DNA of 64,000 bases, from positions 576,001 through 640,000 of the forward strand of contig CM000435.1 in the NCBI GenBank assembly GCA_000165345.1. The letters are read 5' to 3'. Positions 30,101 to 36,100 of the stretch are shown here, one piece after another. Each line of letters starts with the position of its first letter. Positions within the stretch are counted from its first letter, which is position 1. The position numbers are program-made.

Positions 30101-33100
30101 CGAAGAAACTGATGAATTATACAAAGATAAAAATAAAACTAAATTCAATATATGCAATAATTTAACCTTTATCGATATTAGTAAGGAATTTAAATACTGC
30201 AATCAATATAAACAAATAATAAATGCAATAACTGAAGACTACAATGTTAAGAAGAATGAATATGACCTGATTTATATTGACTCTTATTGCCATTTAGTCC
30301 CTACATTTTCACTGGGCCAATTTGAAGTTGAGGAAAGTTTTAACCTTGTGACAGATATTATGATTGCATTGAATTTGATAAAGTTTGGTGGAAATATAAT
30401 TATTTCATTGAAGACAGCCTTAACCAGATTCACAGCTGGAATAATAATTGTTTTAAGCTCTGTATTTGATAAAATTGCTTTAAGTAAGCCGTACTCCTCC
30501 TCTTCGCCTTGCTATTCAAATTTTTATTTAATTTGTTCTGGATTTAACGACCATTCAAATACACTTTCTAGACACTTTTTCCAATTTTTATGGGATGTTT
30601 TTTCAAATAATATTAAAGAAAATACTTCAATAGTACAATGCGTCCCCCCGACTCTATTTGCTTCAGATAATTTCCTTCATTGGCTGAAGGAATTTAATAA
30701 CGAAGTAATGCTATATGATATAGAGATGTTAGAAGCAGTAATTGAACAGCAAGAATCTTCTGATCATCTCGGGCTGAATATTTCAAATTGTGGAAAAAGA
30801 CAAAAAAATACAGATTCTAATTGGGAAGATTTTACCAACAGAGTCAGTATCCAACGTGAGATCTTGAGATATATATTAATTGGAGCAAATAGTTTAAGTT
30901 CGGATGAGGCTTTCTTGAAGCTCTATGGGCAAACTAAAGAAAGCTGCGATACTTTTAAAATGGAAAAAATGGAAGAAAACCATAAGACTTTAAGTGAAGG
31001 AGACCAGAATCTAATAGATATAAATATTCTTCAAAATGATGGCCAATATCCCAATTTTTTAGAGCAAATGAATGTTCACCGACTCGAAGAATCTCAAAGT
31101 AACAAAAATATAGATCCATTTGAAGACCAAGTAGATTTAAATAAAGAAATAGATGTTTTTTGTATCTCACCCGAAATTGAATATAATGATCCATTTGCCC
31201 AAAATAATTGAAAAACTTTTATAAATATAACTTACCACAATATATATAGAATAATTCAGTACGGTTGTCACTTGGAAATCTTCTTGACATTTCTTCCGCC
31301 GATTCCAATGCATCTTTCTCCGAGTTTGCAAGCTTAATATAATCTTCATCGATTGAAAAACTCCATGTTTTATAGTAGTTTAATATCTTTTTAAACTTAG
31401 TATCTAGTAATATTTGATTTTTATTGAGAAGTGAAGAAAATATATGTCCATGTAGTCTGTTAGTAATTATCACCTTTCCTTGGAGAATAAAATTAAGTCC
31501 GGCACAAAATCTTTGAAGTGAAATTCCAATTGAAAATACATCAAAATTTGGTTCGTCATATTCATAAGTGGAGTTAAAGACATTATTTGAGACAAATTGG
31601 GGTGGTGCAATTTCCTCTCCACTTTTTAGAATATATTTATTTCCAAATGAAATACCTTTCGAATAAGTAGTAGGCATAAATTTAATCCAATCGTCAACTT
31701 TTATATTTAAATTTGCGTTATAATTTTTGTTCCATTGTCTTTTACTTGTCTCTCTATCATTTCTATTAATCCATAATATATCATAGGTTTCATTGAATAC
31801 TAAATGCGCTGCAGTGTTGGGACTTTTTTTCTCCTTTGTGGTCACTATTGATGTAACAATATCAGGTGTCAAAAGCAATTTTGTATTAGTTGTGCTTTGA
31901 TTATTGAATAATATACTATGTAAAAAACCAAAGGAATAAATGTCTCTAACAAAAATTGTTAAATTCTTATGCATTTTTAAATAGTCAAAATCTATTATAG
32001 TGTCTTTGCTTTTTAATGATATTGACTGCGGAAAAATAACTGTATTGAATTCACGAAATTCCTCGAGAATTTTTTTTCTTTCATATTCATACTTTGGCCA
32101 TACGTCTCCTAAATTTCCTCCACCAGTTAAAAATATTGTTGGCTTTCGAGGGAGAGTATTTGCAATATTTAATGCTCTTTTAATATCACAAGGCTTGTGA
32201 GAATAATTTGAAGTGCAATAATAAATTATTTTAATATTCAGACGCTTAAATACTAGATATTGGCTCCAATTAATTCCTGCATCTCCTTTATTCTCGTGGT
32301 CTGCTATACCAAAGACTATCCCATTTTCTACATTTCCAATTGTGTATTTCAATATTGACATCATTATTTCACCCTGGACGAAGAAATTGTCTGAGATTCG
32401 AGTATATTTTCGCATAGATTCAGAAAGTAATTTAGGACTTTTTTCTGATAAATTTAATAATAGCTCTGGGTAATTATTGAACCAATTATCAATTTCAAAT
32501 ATTTTTTTAATTTCATCGTTAAATTTTTGATTATTTTTTTCTAAGCCAATAAAACTTGAATTCCTATGTTTTACTTCACCCTATTAAGGCGTTATTCCAA
32601 AAAATAAATACATGAAAATAAATAGAATTAATATCAACCTACCATGGGCGTTAAGCTTTTTTTTGGCAATACGCATGAACATGTATAGGATGTTATCCAT
32701 CCGATAATAATAAATAGACTAGAAATTGCAATTGAAGCAGCGTACGGGTATTTATCTTTATTCGTAATCTTTGCTTCTTTATGCTGTTCTTTAATAACTT
32801 TTTCAACTTTGCCATTACAATCAGTGTTTTTATTCTGGATTTCATTTATATAACTGGGAGTAATCTTCTTTTTACTTTTAAATGATAGTTTTCTCTTTTT
32901 TGAGAAGTGAATACCTAGAATTGCGAGAATACTGCCAAATATTTGTACAATGGGGGGAGCTGTACAGTTGATTAACTCTGCTGTTAATACAATGATTGCT
33001 CTTTTTGCTAAATTGAAATATGCGTGCACAATAGGACTTCCAACTAGCTTTAAAAACGCCAAGGAAGAAAAATTATAAGTAGCATGAAAACATCCACTGA

Positions 33101-36100
33101 TGAGTAATGGCATTACGGAAACATTAATGTTAAATCCTCCAAATGCAATACTCATTATGGAGAATATTGCCAATGAAGTGATCATTCCCCAAAATGATAA
33201 TATAGTAAAGGTACCAACTGCCTTCTCATTTTTATTTGCTGAGGAAACAATAACATTTCTAAGAGATATTGTGAAAGCCCCAACACCTGCAAGTATAACG
33301 CTATATACAATTACTTTTGAACCTGCATTTCCGTTACTTAATGTCGAAGTGACTACAAGTATTATGCCAACTGTGCTAATTGAAAATGCGATTACTTCCC
33401 TAACAGTTACTTTCCGTTTTAAAACAAAAAACGCTAGTATTGCTGTCAATATTAATTCGCTGCACTTTATTATTTGGACTAGCATAACTTTTCCTCCGCC
33501 AAGTGCCGTATTTGCGCAGATATTAGCAATAGCGTACAAGGCTGCAGAAAATAACATCTTGTTACTTCCCCACCATCGTTCTTTCGAAATATGTTTGTTG
33601 TATGAGTTTTTTTGGCCTCTATTTGAGGCTGAAGTAATTAGTTTATCTTTTTTTGGTTCGTTTTCGTAATTAGATCCTATTTCAAATGATGCCTCCGGAA
33701 AATTAATATTTCTGTTGAAAGTATTCAAATTATAATCCTTATTTAGTATTAAATAACTAATATTTACATTTTCATCCATATTGAGATTAGTATCGAACTC
33801 ATTGAATTCGGCCTTTTCTTTACTTATTTCAATATTGTCTCCATCAATAATATAACTGCTAGACTTAGATACTTGCGTAAAATCAGTTTGTTCAAATCTA
33901 TTTTCGCATGTGCTTTCTGTTATGCTGCCTTCAATATTTGAATTGTTTCCATTGATAGATATTCTATTACTTGCTAGTTCAACAGAATCTTGTTTAATTT
34001 CCCTTCTATGAATAATACCAATAATTCCACATATGAGGATTCCAGTAACTGATGCCAATAATAACTGAACAATGGTTAAAAACGAACCAAAAATTATTCT
34101 TGAACTAATAGGTTCATCCTTTGACAATTTGTTAAACGATTTCTTCGTGAAAATTGAGTGTAGTGCAGAACCAACGGTCCATCCTAAGATAGTAAGAGTT
34201 TCTATAATTATACCTTTGATGACTCTTTGTCTATTTGCATTGATTGCAAATTTTTTCATTTTATTCTATTTTTCATCAATATAGAATATATTGTAAAATT
34301 ATTCTAGTACTTGCAGGCACAATAATTAACACTATTGTTTTTAAAATATCATAAAGTCTAATCGGCATGTGGGGAATTGCATGCAAATGCAATACAAATA
34401 AATTCATTTTATTAATATGTTGCAATTAAATATTAAAAATATGTTTCAAAGCTAACTAAGAATTAATCAAGCTTGTTTACTTGCCTCGGTTTTTGAGGTG
34501 GAGCAAAGTTAAAGATATTACTGCTTGAGTTATTTGAAAAGGAATTGCTTGTTGAATTTTGCTCACTTATTTGAGAAAAACCACGAAATTCAGAAGAAAA
34601 TGTGGCAAATCCTCCCATTGAATTGTCCGATACTGGATGGGTTTTGAAAGGAGTTGAAAGGTTCAAATTAGTTGTGTGAAACCCAAACGATTGCTGTTCT
34701 TCAATGTTACAACAATTATTAGAATTAGCGCATAAATTATTATCACTTTTATTCGAACTAAATGGACCATTTACTAAGAATTGAGATGATCCAAAGCCAG
34801 AAACTTTAGGAGCAGTTAAATTTGCTATACAATTAGGAAATCCAAGCAAGCCGCCAAGATTGGCTGGAGATGTCGAATTACCTTCAGGCGTTTGTCTAAT
34901 TCTTTCATCACTAATATCTTTAATATTACAACTTGGACAACCATTTCCAACATCAGAACTAGTGTTACTGTCAATAACAGATTCTCGCACTTCTGGAACA
35001 GTTGACTCACCGAATCTATTTAATTCACTTTTTATATGAACGTACGATAAATTATTCTCTAAGATTTTTTTAGGGTTAGAGCAGATATTATTAATAGGTT
35101 TCAATGGATTGCTATCAGAACTGAAAGAAAAGATATTTGATTCATTAGAAACTATATCCTGCGTATATTTTTTTTCTGATATTGGGCTTTTAAGGTTTAA
35201 TGAAATATTCATTTCTGTTGAAAATGTGAATAATCCTTCGGATGCCCTTTTTGAATTTGGTGTATCGTTATTGGTCAAGCTCAATGGAAAAAGAGAGGAT
35301 TTTATATCTTCCTCATCCATTGATTTCCCGTTTTCACATAAATCTTTTTCTGTTTCATTTTTCTGATCACTAGAGTCTATATCAGTAAATTTTTCATTCA
35401 AGTTAGAATCAGAAGTTTTTTCATCTAAATTATTGCTCAATGAAAATAATTTGTTACTAAAATTAGACTCTTCCAAACTAGGTCGAAGTTTTGTAGGCTC
35501 TTGAGTAATTTCTTGCCAACCATTTGCATTTATTTCGATATCTTTTTCAATTGCTTTCAATTCAGAGCAATTACCAAAATTAAGATTGTTTGTTTCAGAA
35601 ACAGCTTCTAGCTCATTGCCATGATCTTTTAAGCCTGTTTTTTCTAGATTATTCTTAATGCAACCAAATTGATTATTTGCATCAATTTGAGATTGGTGTT
35701 CTAAAAGAGGAGCTTTATAATATGAATGTATTGAGTTTTGGAATTTCCCTGGTAACATGAAAGGGTGAGGTTGAGTGCATTCTTCTTTAAAGCCATCCTG
35801 GATTAGATCTTTATCGTTAAGCTTACTAGAAATGTTTGACTTGAAATTAGTCATAGAACAGTTTGTAATTTTTGGAAAGCTCGACAGTTTTCTCTTGTCC
35901 GATGGTTTACTTATAAATCCAGATATGATCAAAGATAGCTTTTGCCTATACATCATATTTTTCTGCAAAGACGAATTCCTTGATAATAACAATTGAGAAG
36001 CAACAATTCTGCTGCCATTTTGTAAATTATTGCTTGAACCTTTTATTGACTGGGATGAATCTCCTTTTTTGTTGATGAGCGCTGGAATTAATCCTTCTCT

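What the first reader, a model, noticed from the sequence alone, without database searches (positions are those of the whole stretch)
31219..34259. TPT-family sugar-phosphate/nucleotide-sugar-type transporter adjacent to, and possibly spliced in frame with, a polysaccharide pyruvyltransferase-like domain (candidate Rosetta-stone glycan-pyruvylation module)
Two co-oriented minus-strand ORFs are separated by only about 50 nt. The upstream one (32634..34259) has the two conserved blocks of the TPT/NST transporter family. The downstream one (31219..32415) has the N.GD and ITNRLHGHI motifs of the PS_pyruv_trans (Pvg1/CsaB/WcaK) family. Three codons before the transporter stop lies ATG|GTAGGT. Splicing this donor to the YAG acceptor at 32582..32581 removes 62 nt, the same size class as the verified introns here, and enters a 55-codon stop-free, ATG-free frame that runs straight into the pyruvyltransferase ORF (...CVLPKKSLTPM|GEVKHRNSSFIGLEKNNQKFNDEIKKIFEIDNWFNNYPELLLNLSEKSPKLLSESMRKYTR...). 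The result is a 992-aa transporter-transferase fusion. The TPT family includes phosphoenolpyruvate/phosphate translocators. Glycan pyruvyltransferases use PEP as donor, and in fission yeast Golgi pyruvylation by Pvg1 has been described as depending on TPT-family PEP transporters. A physical fusion or tight pairing of the two would couple donor import to pyruvyl transfer. I know of no described system of this kind in a parasitic protist, and the pyruvyltransferase itself looks bacterial or fungal in character, so it may be horizontally acquired.
Basis: partly seen in the sequence, partly recalled or inferred. Interest (0 to 1): 0.8.

Follow-up and report, generated by a model that had tools for sequence, protein, structure and literature searches.

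The report
Transporter fused to glycan pyruvyltransferase
The two Cryptosporidium reading frames are almost certainly one spliced gene that joins a phosphate-translocator-type membrane transporter to a sugar-pyruvylating enzyme; the gene is already in the databases, but how the two halves might work together has not been described in the papers I could search.

Summary
ORF 32634..34259(-) is a TPT-family transporter and ORF 31219..32415(-) is a Pvg1-like pyruvyltransferase. Removing the 62-nt GTAGGT...TAG intron (32581..32642) gives an in-frame 992-aa protein.

The splice is strongly supported by comparison with other species:
- The same phase-0 intron (48-116 nt, always carrying in-frame stops) sits at this position in 8 Cryptosporidium species.
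- The 55 codons upstream of Met-32415 are under purifying selection and are predicted to be structured.
- The same architecture, TPT then an extra TM helix then PvT, occurs in Vitrella, Piridium, Amoebozoa, gastropods and copepods.

The window is the chromosome-7 locus cgd7_2570/2580/2590. Later C. parvum lists show one ID, cgd7_2583, a female-gamete-specific "polysaccharide pyruvyl transferase", which is apparently the merged model.

The transporter keeps the phosphate-binding residues of plastid phosphate translocators, and the enzyme keeps the Pvg1 catalytic residues. Most likely the transporter imports PEP into the secretory lumen in exchange for the Pi that the tethered enzyme releases, so that gamete or oocyst glycans are pyruvylated. 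This is inferred, not shown.

Recent bacterial HGT is not supported.

The parts
32643..34259 (-). Exon 1 (539 codons). It encodes the TPT-family transporter, a K/R-rich cytosolic linker and an 11th TM helix.
   Evidence: ORF; Pfam TPT and EamA; N-terminus and whole length conserved in 7 other species.
32904..34211 (-). 10-TM transporter core (aa 17-452). It includes K265 (33465..33467), Y395, and K419-R420 (33000..33005).
   Evidence: A profile of fused TPT cores matches the GsGPT phosphate translocator 5Y78 at E=2.1e-18 over the full length. The next solved structure, a CMP-sialic acid transporter, scores E=0.12. Codons checked.
33561..34007 (-). Cryptosporidium-specific insertion of about 149 aa in the TM2-TM3 loop, with the conserved motif EGSITESTCENRFEQTD.
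   Evidence: Absent from the Vitrella and mollusc proteins. pLDDT below 50 in the model.
32751..32903 (-). Lys/Arg-rich linker after TM10 (aa 453-503), predicted to be cytosolic.
   Evidence: About 16 K+R in about 51 residues (the tally covers aa 453-504). Cytosolic loops carry 26 K/R, not counting the long TM2-TM3 loop, against 6 in lumenal loops.
32673..32750 (-). 11th transmembrane helix YPYAASIAISSLFIIIGWITSYTCSC (aa 504-529). It is the membrane anchor that should put the enzyme domain in the lumen.
   Evidence: Hydropathy. Helix 503-526 with pLDDT 75-83 in the C. ubiquitum model. An equivalent hydrophobic segment lies between the two domains in 49 of 50 fused proteins.
32581..32642 (-). 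Phase-0 intron, 62 nt, GTAGGT...TAATAG, with an in-frame TGA directly after the donor.
   Evidence: An intron at the same position occurs in C. meleagridis (65 nt), ubiquitum (66), canis (48), felis (72), ryanae (84), xiaoi (84) and muris (116), all with in-frame stops.
31219..32580 (-). Exon 2 (453 codons plus stop at 31219..31221): linker plus the Pvg1-like pyruvyltransferase domain.
32416..32580 (-). 55 stop-free, ATG-free codons upstream of Met-32415. They are coding sequence that can only be expressed through the splice.
   Evidence: The frame is open (54-57 codons) in all 7 species examined. dN/dS is 0.11-0.61 for every pair in which dS could be computed. The equivalent residues 556-590 of the C. 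ubiquitum protein are helical with pLDDT 77-95. The Pvg1 alignment starts 5 residues upstream of the Met.
31402..32292 (-). PS_pyruv_trans domain with the catalytic residues D639 (32281..32283), R751 (31945..31947) and R914 (31456..31458).
   Evidence: Pfam 3.6e-17. S. pombe Pvg1 (5AX7) at E=5.7e-32, with D106/R217/R337 aligned to these residues. The residues are invariant in 25 fused proteins. Codons checked.
27645..31211 (+). Neighbouring convergent gene: FtsJ-family methyltransferase, 1188 aa (cgd7_2570 orthologue). It is context only and fixes the locus identity.
   Evidence: ORF. The same neighbour carries Pfam FtsJ in all orthologous loci. Gene order cgd7_2570 / 2580 / 2590 / 2600.

Best explanation
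This is one gene, the orthologue of C. parvum cgd7_2583 (formerly cgd7_2590 plus cgd7_2580). It has two exons joined by a conserved 62-nt phase-0 intron.

The 992-aa product has four parts. First, a 10-TM transporter of the TPT/DMT family that retains the phosphate-binding Lys/Lys-Arg/Tyr of plastid phosphate translocators. Second, a Lys-rich cytosolic linker. Third, an 11th TM helix. Fourth, a Pvg1-like pyruvyltransferase that this helix places on the lumenal side of a secretory compartment.

Proposed mechanism (inferred):
1. The transporter imports cytosolic phosphoenolpyruvate.
2. The tethered enzyme transfers the enolpyruvyl group as a ketal onto a terminal sugar of a glycoconjugate, most likely galactose, and releases inorganic phosphate.
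3. That phosphate is the counter-substrate exported by the antiporter, so import and use of the donor are matched 1:1.

Expression is specific to female gametes in C. parvum. The likely product is therefore an anionic, pyruvylated glycan of the macrogamont or the oocyst wall.

Shown here: the gene structure, its conservation, the family assignments and the conserved residues. Inferred: topology, substrate, antiport coupling and the target glycan.
For: Gene structure:
- The splice is in frame.
- An identical intron position occurs in 8 species. Lengths vary (48-116 nt), some are not multiples of 3, and all contain stops.
- The linker codons upstream of Met-32415 have dN/dS of 0.11-0.61 and are predicted helical at pLDDT 77-95.
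- A protein starting at Met-32415 would have no signal peptide or anchor, whereas Pvg1 is a type II Golgi protein.

Conservation of the fusion:
- Annotated fused proteins exist in 7 Cryptosporidium species and in Vitrella.
- 50 proteins in hand carry both domains in the same order. They come from gastropods, copepods, Physarum, Ceratiomyxa and Piridium, and several are transcriptome ORFs.
- 49 of 50 have a hydrophobic helix between the domains, preceded by K/R-rich sequence.
- Trees of the two halves are congruent.

Enzyme half:
- Pvg1 5AX7 at E=5.7e-32 with D106/R217/R337 conserved.
- Fold match TM 0.80.

Transporter half:
- The profile hits the GsGPT phosphate translocator at E=2.1e-18, against 0.12 for the best nucleotide-sugar transporter.
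- K265, Y395 and K419-R420 align with GsGPT K204, Y339 and K362-R363. The residue numbers are from my memory of Lee et al. 2017; the chain positions fit their spacing.
- The best structural match for this half is 5Y78.

Precedent: S. pombe Pvg1 depends on the Golgi PEP transporters Pet1 and Pet2 (PMC4872226, PMC6801904).

Biology:
- cgd7_2580, cgd7_2590 and cgd7_2583 are induced in females (log2FC 3.6 and 6.2).
- Pyruvylated galactose is chemically known from Aplysia glycolipids (PMC6994554), and Aplysia californica carries a fused gene.
Against: - No transcript or protein evidence for the splice in Cryptosporidium could be reached with these tools.
- In the published female-stage RNA-seq the 5' (transporter) half has 8-17 times more counts per million than the 3' half. 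A single uniform mRNA does not predict this.
- A 2015 RNA-seq-guided reannotation kept the two ORFs separate, and C. muris is still annotated as two genes.
- The Met at 32415 is conserved in all Cryptosporidium species, so internal initiation is not excluded.
- The transporter fails the NCBIfam plastid tpt subfamily cut-off by far (16.5 against 317.9 bits). It passes Pfam TPT only narrowly.
- Its relationship to S. pombe Pet1-3 was not tested.
- No pyruvylated glycan has been reported from Cryptosporidium.
Confidence: 0.6

Rival explanations
1. The fusion is real, but the transporter does not carry PEP. It supplies something else to the lumen, for example a nucleotide sugar such as UDP-Gal for the acceptor glycan, or another phosphorylated metabolite.
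For: - TPT/DMT-family members include many nucleotide-sugar transporters.
- The Pfam TPT score is only just above threshold.
- The plastid tpt subfamily model is not met.
- Substrate cannot be read from sequence.
- Fold search also returns SLC35B1, CST and Vrg4 with probability 1.0.
Against: - The profile match to the phosphate translocator is about 17 orders of magnitude better than to any solved nucleotide-sugar transporter.
- The phosphate-binding Lys, Tyr and Lys-Arg are kept in alveolate, mollusc and other fused proteins.
- The only donor known for this enzyme family is PEP, and it must cross the membrane.
Confidence: 0.2
2. Two products are made from one locus. Besides the spliced fusion, an abundant transcript that is unspliced or ends early yields a free 541-aa transporter, because translation stops two codons into the intron. 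This is not exclusive of the best explanation.
For: - In all 8 species an in-frame TGA or TAA follows the donor hexamer directly.
- Published log2 CPM in females is 9.7-9.9 for cgd7_2590 against 5.6-6.8 for cgd7_2580.
Against: - Intron retention alone does not lower read depth downstream.
- The difference could come from how reads were assigned to the old gene models, or from overlap with neighbouring or antisense transcripts. The convergent FtsJ gene ends 7 nt away.
- The stop may be conserved only because it adjoins the donor consensus in AT-rich sequence.
Confidence: 0.25
3. There are two independent genes: a transporter ending at 32634 and a separate 398-aa pyruvyltransferase starting at ATG 32415. 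The apparent intron would be a coincidence.
For: - The original and the 2015 annotations kept them apart, and C. muris has two models.
- The Met is conserved.
- Expression of the two halves is unequal.
Against: - It does not explain 54-57 open, selected codons without a start upstream of the Met in 7 species, nor their confident predicted structure.
- It does not explain the identical phase-0 GT..AG at the same residue in 8 species.
- It leaves an enzyme lacking any signal or anchor.
- It does not explain the same fused order in more than 40 proteins from other eukaryotes.
Confidence: 0.07
4. The pyruvyltransferase was recently acquired by Cryptosporidium from bacteria and landed next to a resident transporter.
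For: Most PS_pyruv_trans members are bacterial. Cyanobacterial proteins score E of about 1e-38 against the domain profile.
Against: - The nearest relatives are the fused proteins of Vitrella and Piridium, followed by other eukaryotes (molluscs E of about 1e-56, copepods, Amoebozoa, fungi).
- Both halves give the same grouping.
- The best solved relative is eukaryotic Pvg1.
Confidence: 0.04

Closest known systems
S. pombe Pvg1 pyruvyltransferase with the Golgi PEP transporters Pet1/Pet2 (Pet3)
   Same: - The enzyme family, fold and catalytic residues are the same.
- The enzyme is lumenal and held by one TM helix.
- The donor PEP has to be imported by a TPT-family transporter.
   Different: - In yeast the transporter and the enzyme are separate proteins. 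Here they are one polypeptide, and the 11th TM helix takes the place of the Pvg1 signal anchor.
- Orthology of the transporter half to Pet1-3 was not tested.
- The residue at the Pvg1 acceptor-specificity position H168 is Tyr here, so the acceptor may differ.
Plastid phosphate translocators (GsGPT 5Y78/5Y79; plant TPT, PPT, GPT, XPT)
   Same: - 10-TM DMT fold.
- Full-length profile match at E=2.1e-18.
- The phosphate-binding Lys, Tyr and Lys-Arg are conserved.
- The implied mechanism is strict antiport of a phosphorylated compound against Pi.
   Different: - It does not reach the NCBIfam tpt subfamily score.
- It has no plastid targeting sequence.
- It has a 149-aa loop insertion and a C-terminal TM helix plus enzyme domain.
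- It is presumably located in the secretory pathway.
C. parvum cgd7_2583 and the fused orthologue models in GenBank (C. meleagridis, C. ubiquitum cubi_02933, C. canis, C. felis, C. ryanae, C. xiaoi)
   Same: The same locus, neighbours and splice junction. It is reported as a female-specific 'polysaccharide pyruvyl transferase'.
   Different: The annotations name only the transferase, or say '10 transmembrane domains'. The papers I could search do not discuss the transporter half, the extra helix or the coupling.
Bacterial polysaccharide pyruvyltransferases (CsaB, WcaK, EpsO/EpsI) and bacterial Wzx-flippase/PvT fusions
   Same: The same Pfam family and the same PEP-dependent chemistry. A bacterial protein with Polysacc_synt (a flippase) fused to PvT (P0230) shows the same general logic of linking a membrane transporter to this enzyme.
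   Different: Bacterial enzymes act on the cytoplasmic side, on lipid-linked units, so they need no PEP transporter. The sequences are much more distant than the eukaryotic fused proteins.

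Membership tests
PS_pyruv_trans (PF04230), Pvg1-like subgroup | Pfam model matched above the gathering score. | tested here: met
   63.6 bits against 25.3, covering profile positions 1-277 of 280.
PS_pyruv_trans (PF04230), Pvg1-like subgroup | Proposed catalytic residues of Pvg1 (D106, R217, R337) are present. | tested here: met
   They align to D639, R751 and R914 (residue roles from PMC4872226). These residues are invariant in 25 fused proteins, and the codons were verified.
PS_pyruv_trans (PF04230), Pvg1-like subgroup | Two-lobed alpha/beta fold of Pvg1. | tested here: met
   The AlphaFold model of the 79%-identical C. ubiquitum orthologue matches 5AX7 at E=2.4e-13 with target TM-score 0.80. 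The domain has pLDDT mostly above 85. The window protein itself could not be submitted.
PS_pyruv_trans (PF04230), Pvg1-like subgroup | PEP-dependent pyruvyl ketal transfer to a sugar. | not testable with these tools
   This needs an enzyme assay or glycan analysis.
TPT / drug-metabolite transporter family (PF03151) | Pfam model matched above the gathering score. | tested here: met
   35.1 bits against 30, which is marginal; EamA 29.7 against 28.2. A profile of fused TPT cores gives E=2.1e-18 against GsGPT over the full length.
TPT / drug-metabolite transporter family (PF03151) | 10-TM fold. | tested here: met
   Ten helices are predicted before the extra one. Foldseek matches 5Y78, SLC35B1, CST and Vrg4 at probability 1.0. 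Confidence for this half of the model is moderate (pLDDT 65-84).
Phosphate translocator subgroup (plastid TPT/PPT/GPT type) | Phosphate-binding Lys (TM4), Tyr (TM8) and Lys-Arg (TM9). | tested here: met
   K265, Y395 and K419-R420 align with chain residues 115, 250 and 273-274 of 5Y78, that is K204, Y339, K362 and R363. The residue roles are recalled from Lee et al. 2017, not read here. K419-R420 are nearly invariant (at least 90%) in all fused proteins.
Phosphate translocator subgroup (plastid TPT/PPT/GPT type) | NCBIfam TIGR00817 (tpt) subfamily score. | tested here: not met
   16.5 bits against a cut-off of 317.9. It is not a member of the plastid subfamily, only of a related branch.
Phosphate translocator subgroup (plastid TPT/PPT/GPT type) | Counter-exchange of PEP (or another phosphorylated compound) with Pi. 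| not testable with these tools
   This needs reconstitution in liposomes.
S. pombe Pet1-3 Golgi PEP transporters | Orthology of the transporter half to Pet1, Pet2 or Pet3. | not tested
   The Pet sequences could not be obtained with these tools, and the transporter-half search returned only Cryptosporidium proteins.
TPT-TM11-PvT fusion architecture (unnamed) | N-terminal TPT core, a hydrophobic helix in the inter-domain linker, and a C-terminal PvT in one polypeptide. | tested here: met
   The window protein has all three. 50 database proteins share the order, and 49 of them have the linker helix.
TPT-TM11-PvT fusion architecture (unnamed) | A single mRNA and a single protein in Cryptosporidium. 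| not testable with these tools
   The evidence is comparative only.

The most novel reading that the evidence does not exclude
The TPT-TM11-PvT protein is an ancient, widely scattered eukaryotic 'self-supplying' glycan-pyruvylation machine. A PEP/Pi antiporter is physically tethered to the lumenal enzyme that consumes PEP and regenerates the Pi counter-substrate. In Cryptosporidium it builds a so far undetected pyruvylated anionic glycan of the female gamete or the oocyst wall. It may act together with the second fusion, cgd6_1450 (PvT plus a Fringe-like glycosyltransferase domain), which parallels S. pombe Pvg3 plus Pvg1.
Probability: 0.45. Interest if true: 0.65.

Novelty: new variant of a known kind. 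Interest (0 to 1): 0.5.

Why it matters
The chemistry of the Cryptosporidium oocyst wall and gamete glycans is poorly known. The authors who found this gene to be female-specific note that no wall polysaccharide has been identified. Three things follow from reading the gene as a transporter-enzyme fusion:
- It predicts a specific modification, a pyruvate ketal, made in the secretory pathway of the transmission stage.
- It gives a single-gene target for knockout and glycomics.
- It offers a natural 'Rosetta stone' confirming that Golgi pyruvylation needs a dedicated PEP/Pi exchanger.

The same architecture in gastropods, where pyruvylated glycolipids are known from Aplysia, and in copepods and slime moulds suggests that eukaryotic pyruvylation is more widespread than the few documented cases. 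The finding does not reveal a new gene or a new kind of biochemistry.

Tried and rejected
- Single-sequence search of the transporter half against solved structures found nothing. A Cryptosporidium-only profile gave only a weak partial hit plus a spurious flagellin-repeat hit. A profile that included mollusc sequences was needed.
- The third homologue search, with the transporter profile, returned only two Cryptosporidium proteins. It named no characterised transporter, so the comparison with Pet1-3 or apicoplast translocators failed.
- The closest stand-alone TPT relatives in the representative library carry no names.
The C. ubiquitum orthologue was used instead.
- A scan of metagenome contigs for the spliced junction found nothing.
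- Literature searches for a described transporter-pyruvyltransferase fusion, or for pyruvate in oocyst walls, found only the 2019 life-cycle paper. One search failed on syntax.
- Bacterial HGT was rejected because Vitrella and Piridium share the fusion and the two-half trees are congruent. These are NJ trees without support values, so they are only indicative.
- Read-through of the intron was rejected because every species has in-frame stops.

Full report
**1. The observation**

The window is AT-rich (about 30% G+C) with tightly packed long ORFs. On the minus strand, the ORF listing gives a 541-aa ORF at 32634..34259 and a 398-aa ORF at 31219..32415.

The upstream ORF ends ...SLTPM-V-G-stop. 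The sequence ATG|GTAGGT lies at 32645..32637, and a TAG acceptor ends at 32581. Removing 32581..32642 (62 nt) joins 1617 nt to 1362 nt in frame. The product is 992 aa with the junction ...KKSLTPM|GEVKHRNSSF... The 55 codons from 32580 to 32416 contain no stop and no ATG, and the unspliced frame hits a TGA two codons into the intron.

Pfam places the first ORF in TPT (35.1 bits, cut-off 30) and EamA. It places the second in PS_pyruv_trans (63.6 bits, cut-off 25.3).

**2. Identity of the locus**

A search with the fused protein returned full-length fused proteins carrying both Pfam domains. They come from:
- C. meleagridis (93% identity)
- Cryptosporidium chipmunk genotype I
- C. ubiquitum
- C. 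canis
- C. felis
- C. ryanae
- C. xiaoi
- the chromerid Vitrella brassicaformis, at 891 aa

In the six loci of those species that I fetched, and in C. muris, the gene lies between a roughly 1430-1600-aa gene and a convergent FtsJ-domain gene, as it does in the window (window ORFs).

Published tables give the gene order for C. parvum and C. hominis:
- cgd7_2570: 'Adrift-like FtsJ methyltransferase'
- cgd7_2580
- cgd7_2590
- cgd7_2600

Later gene lists show a single ID, cgd7_2583 'Polysaccharide pyruvyl transferase', directly after cgd7_2570. In another table from the same study, both old IDs carry that product name, including the transporter ORF, which has no such domain of its own. The most economical reading is that the community annotation has already merged the two ORFs. 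I could not inspect that model directly.

A 2015 RNA-seq-guided reannotation still listed them separately. C. muris RN66 is still annotated as two genes. The exact 541-aa ORF of the window occurs in many public Cryptosporidium genome assemblies.

**3. Is the splice real?**

No Cryptosporidium transcript data could be reached, so the evidence is comparative. It is strong.

(a) Mapping the annotated proteins back onto their loci shows one intron at exactly this residue and phase in every species. The introns begin GTAGGT or GTAAGT and end YAG:

| Species | Intron length (nt) |
|---|---|
| C. canis | 48 |
| window | 62 |
| C. meleagridis | 65 |
| C. ubiquitum | 66 |
| C. felis | 72 |
| C. ryanae | 84 |
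| C. xiaoi | 84 |

In C. muris the same GTAAGT donor (L008 6513) and TAG acceptor (6628) define a 116-nt intron that also restores the frame.

(b) Every one of these introns contains in-frame stops, so read-through cannot give the fusion.

(c) The stretch between the acceptor and the conserved Met stays open for 54-57 codons in the seven species compared. It gives dN/dS of 0.11-0.61 for every pair in which dS could be computed. It contains the conserved block NWF..YP.LL.YLSEK.P.LLSES.

(d) In an AlphaFold model of the C. ubiquitum orthologue (79% identical; mean pLDDT 70.9), the residues upstream of that Met (556-590) form helices with pLDDT 77-95 that belong to the enzyme domain. The alignment to the Pvg1 crystal construct also begins upstream of the Met.

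(e) A protein starting at Met-32415 (MRKYTRISDNFF...) has no hydrophobic N-terminus. Pvg1, by contrast, is a type II Golgi membrane protein.

(f) The intron is about 23% G+C and 62 nt long. This fits the published figures for C. parvum introns of 22% G+C and a mean of about 99 nt.

I put the fused gene model at about 0.9.

**4. The fusion is old and widespread**

A profile of the enzyme half found many gastropod proteins that carry PF03151 and PF04230 together: Patella, Lottia, Haliotis, Gigantopelta, Physella, and a tandem family in Pomacea canaliculata.

A full-length profile was then run against 1.84 billion representative proteins. About 25 representatives matched end to end. Look-ups named these:
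- Gastropods: Aplysia californica, Littorina, Elysia, Biomphalaria
- Copepods: Tigriopus californicus and an entry tagged 'Tk' (probably T. kingsejongensis)
- Amoebozoa: Physarum polycephalum and Ceratiomyxa fruticulosa
- The chrompodellid-related Piridium sociabile

The last three are Trinity or transcript-derived ORFs, so in those organisms the fusion is seen in mRNA.

With my own HMMs, 50 proteins in hand contain both domains, always with the transporter first. In 49 of the 50 the inter-domain linker contains a hydrophobic 19-mer, usually preceded by K/R-rich sequence.

Neighbour-joining trees of the two halves both group Cryptosporidium with Vitrella and Piridium, the Amoebozoa together, and gastropods with copepods (no support values). 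This argues for an old eukaryotic fusion inherited within the alveolates. It argues against a recent bacterial transfer into Cryptosporidium. Cyanobacterial and fungal stand-alone enzymes are more distant.

**5. What the two halves are**

*Enzyme half.* The best solved relative is S. pombe Pvg1 (5AX7, E=5.7e-32). The fold search agrees (E=2.4e-13, target TM-score 0.80).

I mapped chain positions to Pvg1 numbering using the disulfide Cys68, which gives an offset of 53. The three proposed catalytic or PEP-binding residues D106, R217 and R337 then align with D639 (ENKGD), R751 (FVRD) and R914 (NRLH). All three are invariant across 25 fused proteins. The Pvg1 acceptor-specificity residue H168 is Tyr here.

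*Transporter half.* The single sequence is too divergent for the PDB. A profile of the fused transporters matches the Galdieria phosphate translocator GsGPT (5Y78) over its whole length at E=2.1e-18. The next solved structure, a CMP-sialic acid transporter, scores only E=0.12. The structural search also ranks 5Y78 first for this half.

In that alignment K265, Y395 and K419-R420 fall on chain residues 115, 250 and 273-274. Those are K204, Y339 and K362-R363 of GsGPT, the residues I recall as binding the substrate phosphate (Lee et al. 2017). The spacing of 158 residues between the two lysines fits that numbering. The protein is nevertheless not a member of the plastid subfamily, since TIGR00817 gives 16.5 against 317.9 bits.

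**6. Topology and mechanism (inferred)**

Ten helices precede a linker with 16 K+R in about 50 residues, and then the 11th helix YPYAASIAISSLFIIIGWITSYTCSC. With the N-terminus in the cytosol, as established for Golgi transporters of this fold, cytosolic loops hold 26 K/R, not counting the long TM2-TM3 loop. Lumenal loops hold 6. The 11th helix therefore carries the chain across once more and puts the enzyme in the lumen, exactly where the Pvg1 signal anchor puts Pvg1.

In S. pombe, Pvg1 depends on the Golgi PEP transporters Pet1 and Pet2. The pyruvyl transfer from PEP releases inorganic phosphate. Phosphate translocators are antiporters that exchange a phosphorylated compound for Pi. A tethered pair would therefore form a closed cycle: PEP in, pyruvate onto the glycan, Pi out.

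None of this has been measured for this protein. I give the whole mechanism about 0.55-0.6.

**7. Biological setting**

In sorted C. parvum stages both old gene IDs are strongly induced in females:

| Gene ID | Half | Asexual | Female in vitro | Female in vivo |
|---|---|---|---|---|
| cgd7_2580 | enzyme | 1.9 | 5.6 | 6.8 |
| cgd7_2590 | transporter | 3.5 | 9.7 | 9.9 |

Values are mean log2 CPM.

The authors list cgd7_2583 and a second enzyme, cgd6_1450 ('with Fringe-like domain'), among female transcripts that may build a proteoglycan-like wall. They note that no wall polysaccharide is known. A pyruvylated anionic glycan of the macrogamont or oocyst wall is thus the most likely product.

Pyruvylated galactose is documented in Aplysia glycolipids, and Aplysia californica has a fused gene. 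This is a suggestive correlation between the architecture and the modification.

**8. What does not fit**

The transporter half has 8-17 times more counts than the enzyme half in the female samples. A single evenly covered mRNA would give about a 1.4-fold difference, from the lengths alone. Possible reasons are:
- an additional short transporter-only transcript,
- assignment artefacts with the old gene models, or
- overlapping transcripts from the neighbours, since the convergent FtsJ gene stops 7 nt from this gene's stop.

In all eight species a stop codon follows the donor hexamer immediately. An unspliced message would therefore encode an intact free transporter. I treat a two-product locus as a live, non-exclusive possibility at about 0.25.

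**9. Comparison with what is known, and verdict**

The gene, its fused model in several species and its female-specific expression are already public. The enzyme family, the transporter family and the two-protein Pvg1/Pet system are known.

What I could not find in the searchable literature is any description of the following:
- the transporter-enzyme fusion itself,
- its universal extra helix,
- the conserved phosphate-binding residues, or
- its distribution across alveolates, Amoebozoa, molluscs and copepods.

I therefore rate it as a new variant of a known kind. It is not a new gene and not a parasite-specific or horizontally acquired oddity. Interest is moderate at 0.5: it is a tidy, testable Rosetta-stone case bearing on the unknown glycan chemistry of the Cryptosporidium transmission stage.

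Noticed in passing
window 33561..34007 (-), aa 85-233 of the protein: Cryptosporidium proteins carry an insertion of about 149 aa in the TM2-TM3 loop that is absent from Vitrella and the mollusc proteins. It is mostly low-complexity, but it contains a block conserved across all species, (E/D)GS(I/V)TESTCEN(R/K)..., near-identical in most species. This may be a sorting or phosphorylation motif. It is disordered in the model.
   Followed up: partly
window 32634..32642 (-); L001-L006 and L008 at the donor sites: In all 8 Cryptosporidium species the donor hexamer is followed at once by an in-frame stop (GTAGGT-TGA, GTAGGT-TAA or GTAAGT-TAA). Unspliced mRNA would therefore encode a complete free transporter with two extra residues.
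   Followed up: partly
published data for cgd7_2580 and cgd7_2590 (PMC6877471, supplementary file 4): The 5' (transporter) ORF has 8-17 times more counts per million than the 3' (enzyme) ORF in female stages, although both are female-induced. This is unexplained. It could be a short isoform, a quantification artefact or overlapping transcripts.
   Followed up: partly
window 31211..31219: The convergent FtsJ-family gene (27645..31211, +) stops only 7 nt from the stop codon of this gene (31219..31221, -). Their 3' untranslated regions must overlap.
   Followed up: no
L003 5890..5933 (C. meleagridis); P0002 (chipmunk genotype I): The C. meleagridis model has a second 44-nt 'intron' inside sequence that is conserved coding sequence in the other species (WSFSIDE.YIKLANSE), and it ends in an aberrant C-terminus. 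The chipmunk-genotype protein is also truncated at the C-terminus. These are probably annotation patches over assembly frameshifts.
   Followed up: partly
L008 5001..8122 (C. muris RN66): C. muris is annotated as two genes: CMU_034680, a 506-aa transporter, and a 479-aa PvT starting at an upstream ATG. The same phase-0 donor (6513) and TAG acceptor (6628) would join them in frame through a 116-nt intron.
   Followed up: yes
introns in window 32581..32642, L003, L004, L005: A short motif near the 3' end of the intron, TTTTTGGAATA(A/C), is conserved between the window, C. meleagridis, C. ubiquitum and C. canis, although the intron lengths differ. It may be the branch-point region or a regulatory element.
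   Followed up: no
proteins P0179, P0159, P0230, P0195; C. parvum cgd6_1450: The pyruvyltransferase domain is fused to other partners elsewhere:
- a Fringe-like domain (P0179, and by name C. parvum cgd6_1450), which parallels S. pombe Pvg3 galactosyltransferase plus Pvg1;
- a GT8 glycosyltransferase (P0159);
- a bacterial Wzx-type flippase (P0230);
- a much more canonical TPT (P0195, Pfam TPT E=1.8e-48).
   Followed up: partly
Pomacea canaliculata proteins C0Q70_07236 to C0Q70_07249: The apple snail has at least eleven paralogues of the fused gene on one scaffold, judging by consecutive locus tags. This suggests a tandem expansion. Other gastropods (Patella, Haliotis) also have several copies.
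   Followed up: no
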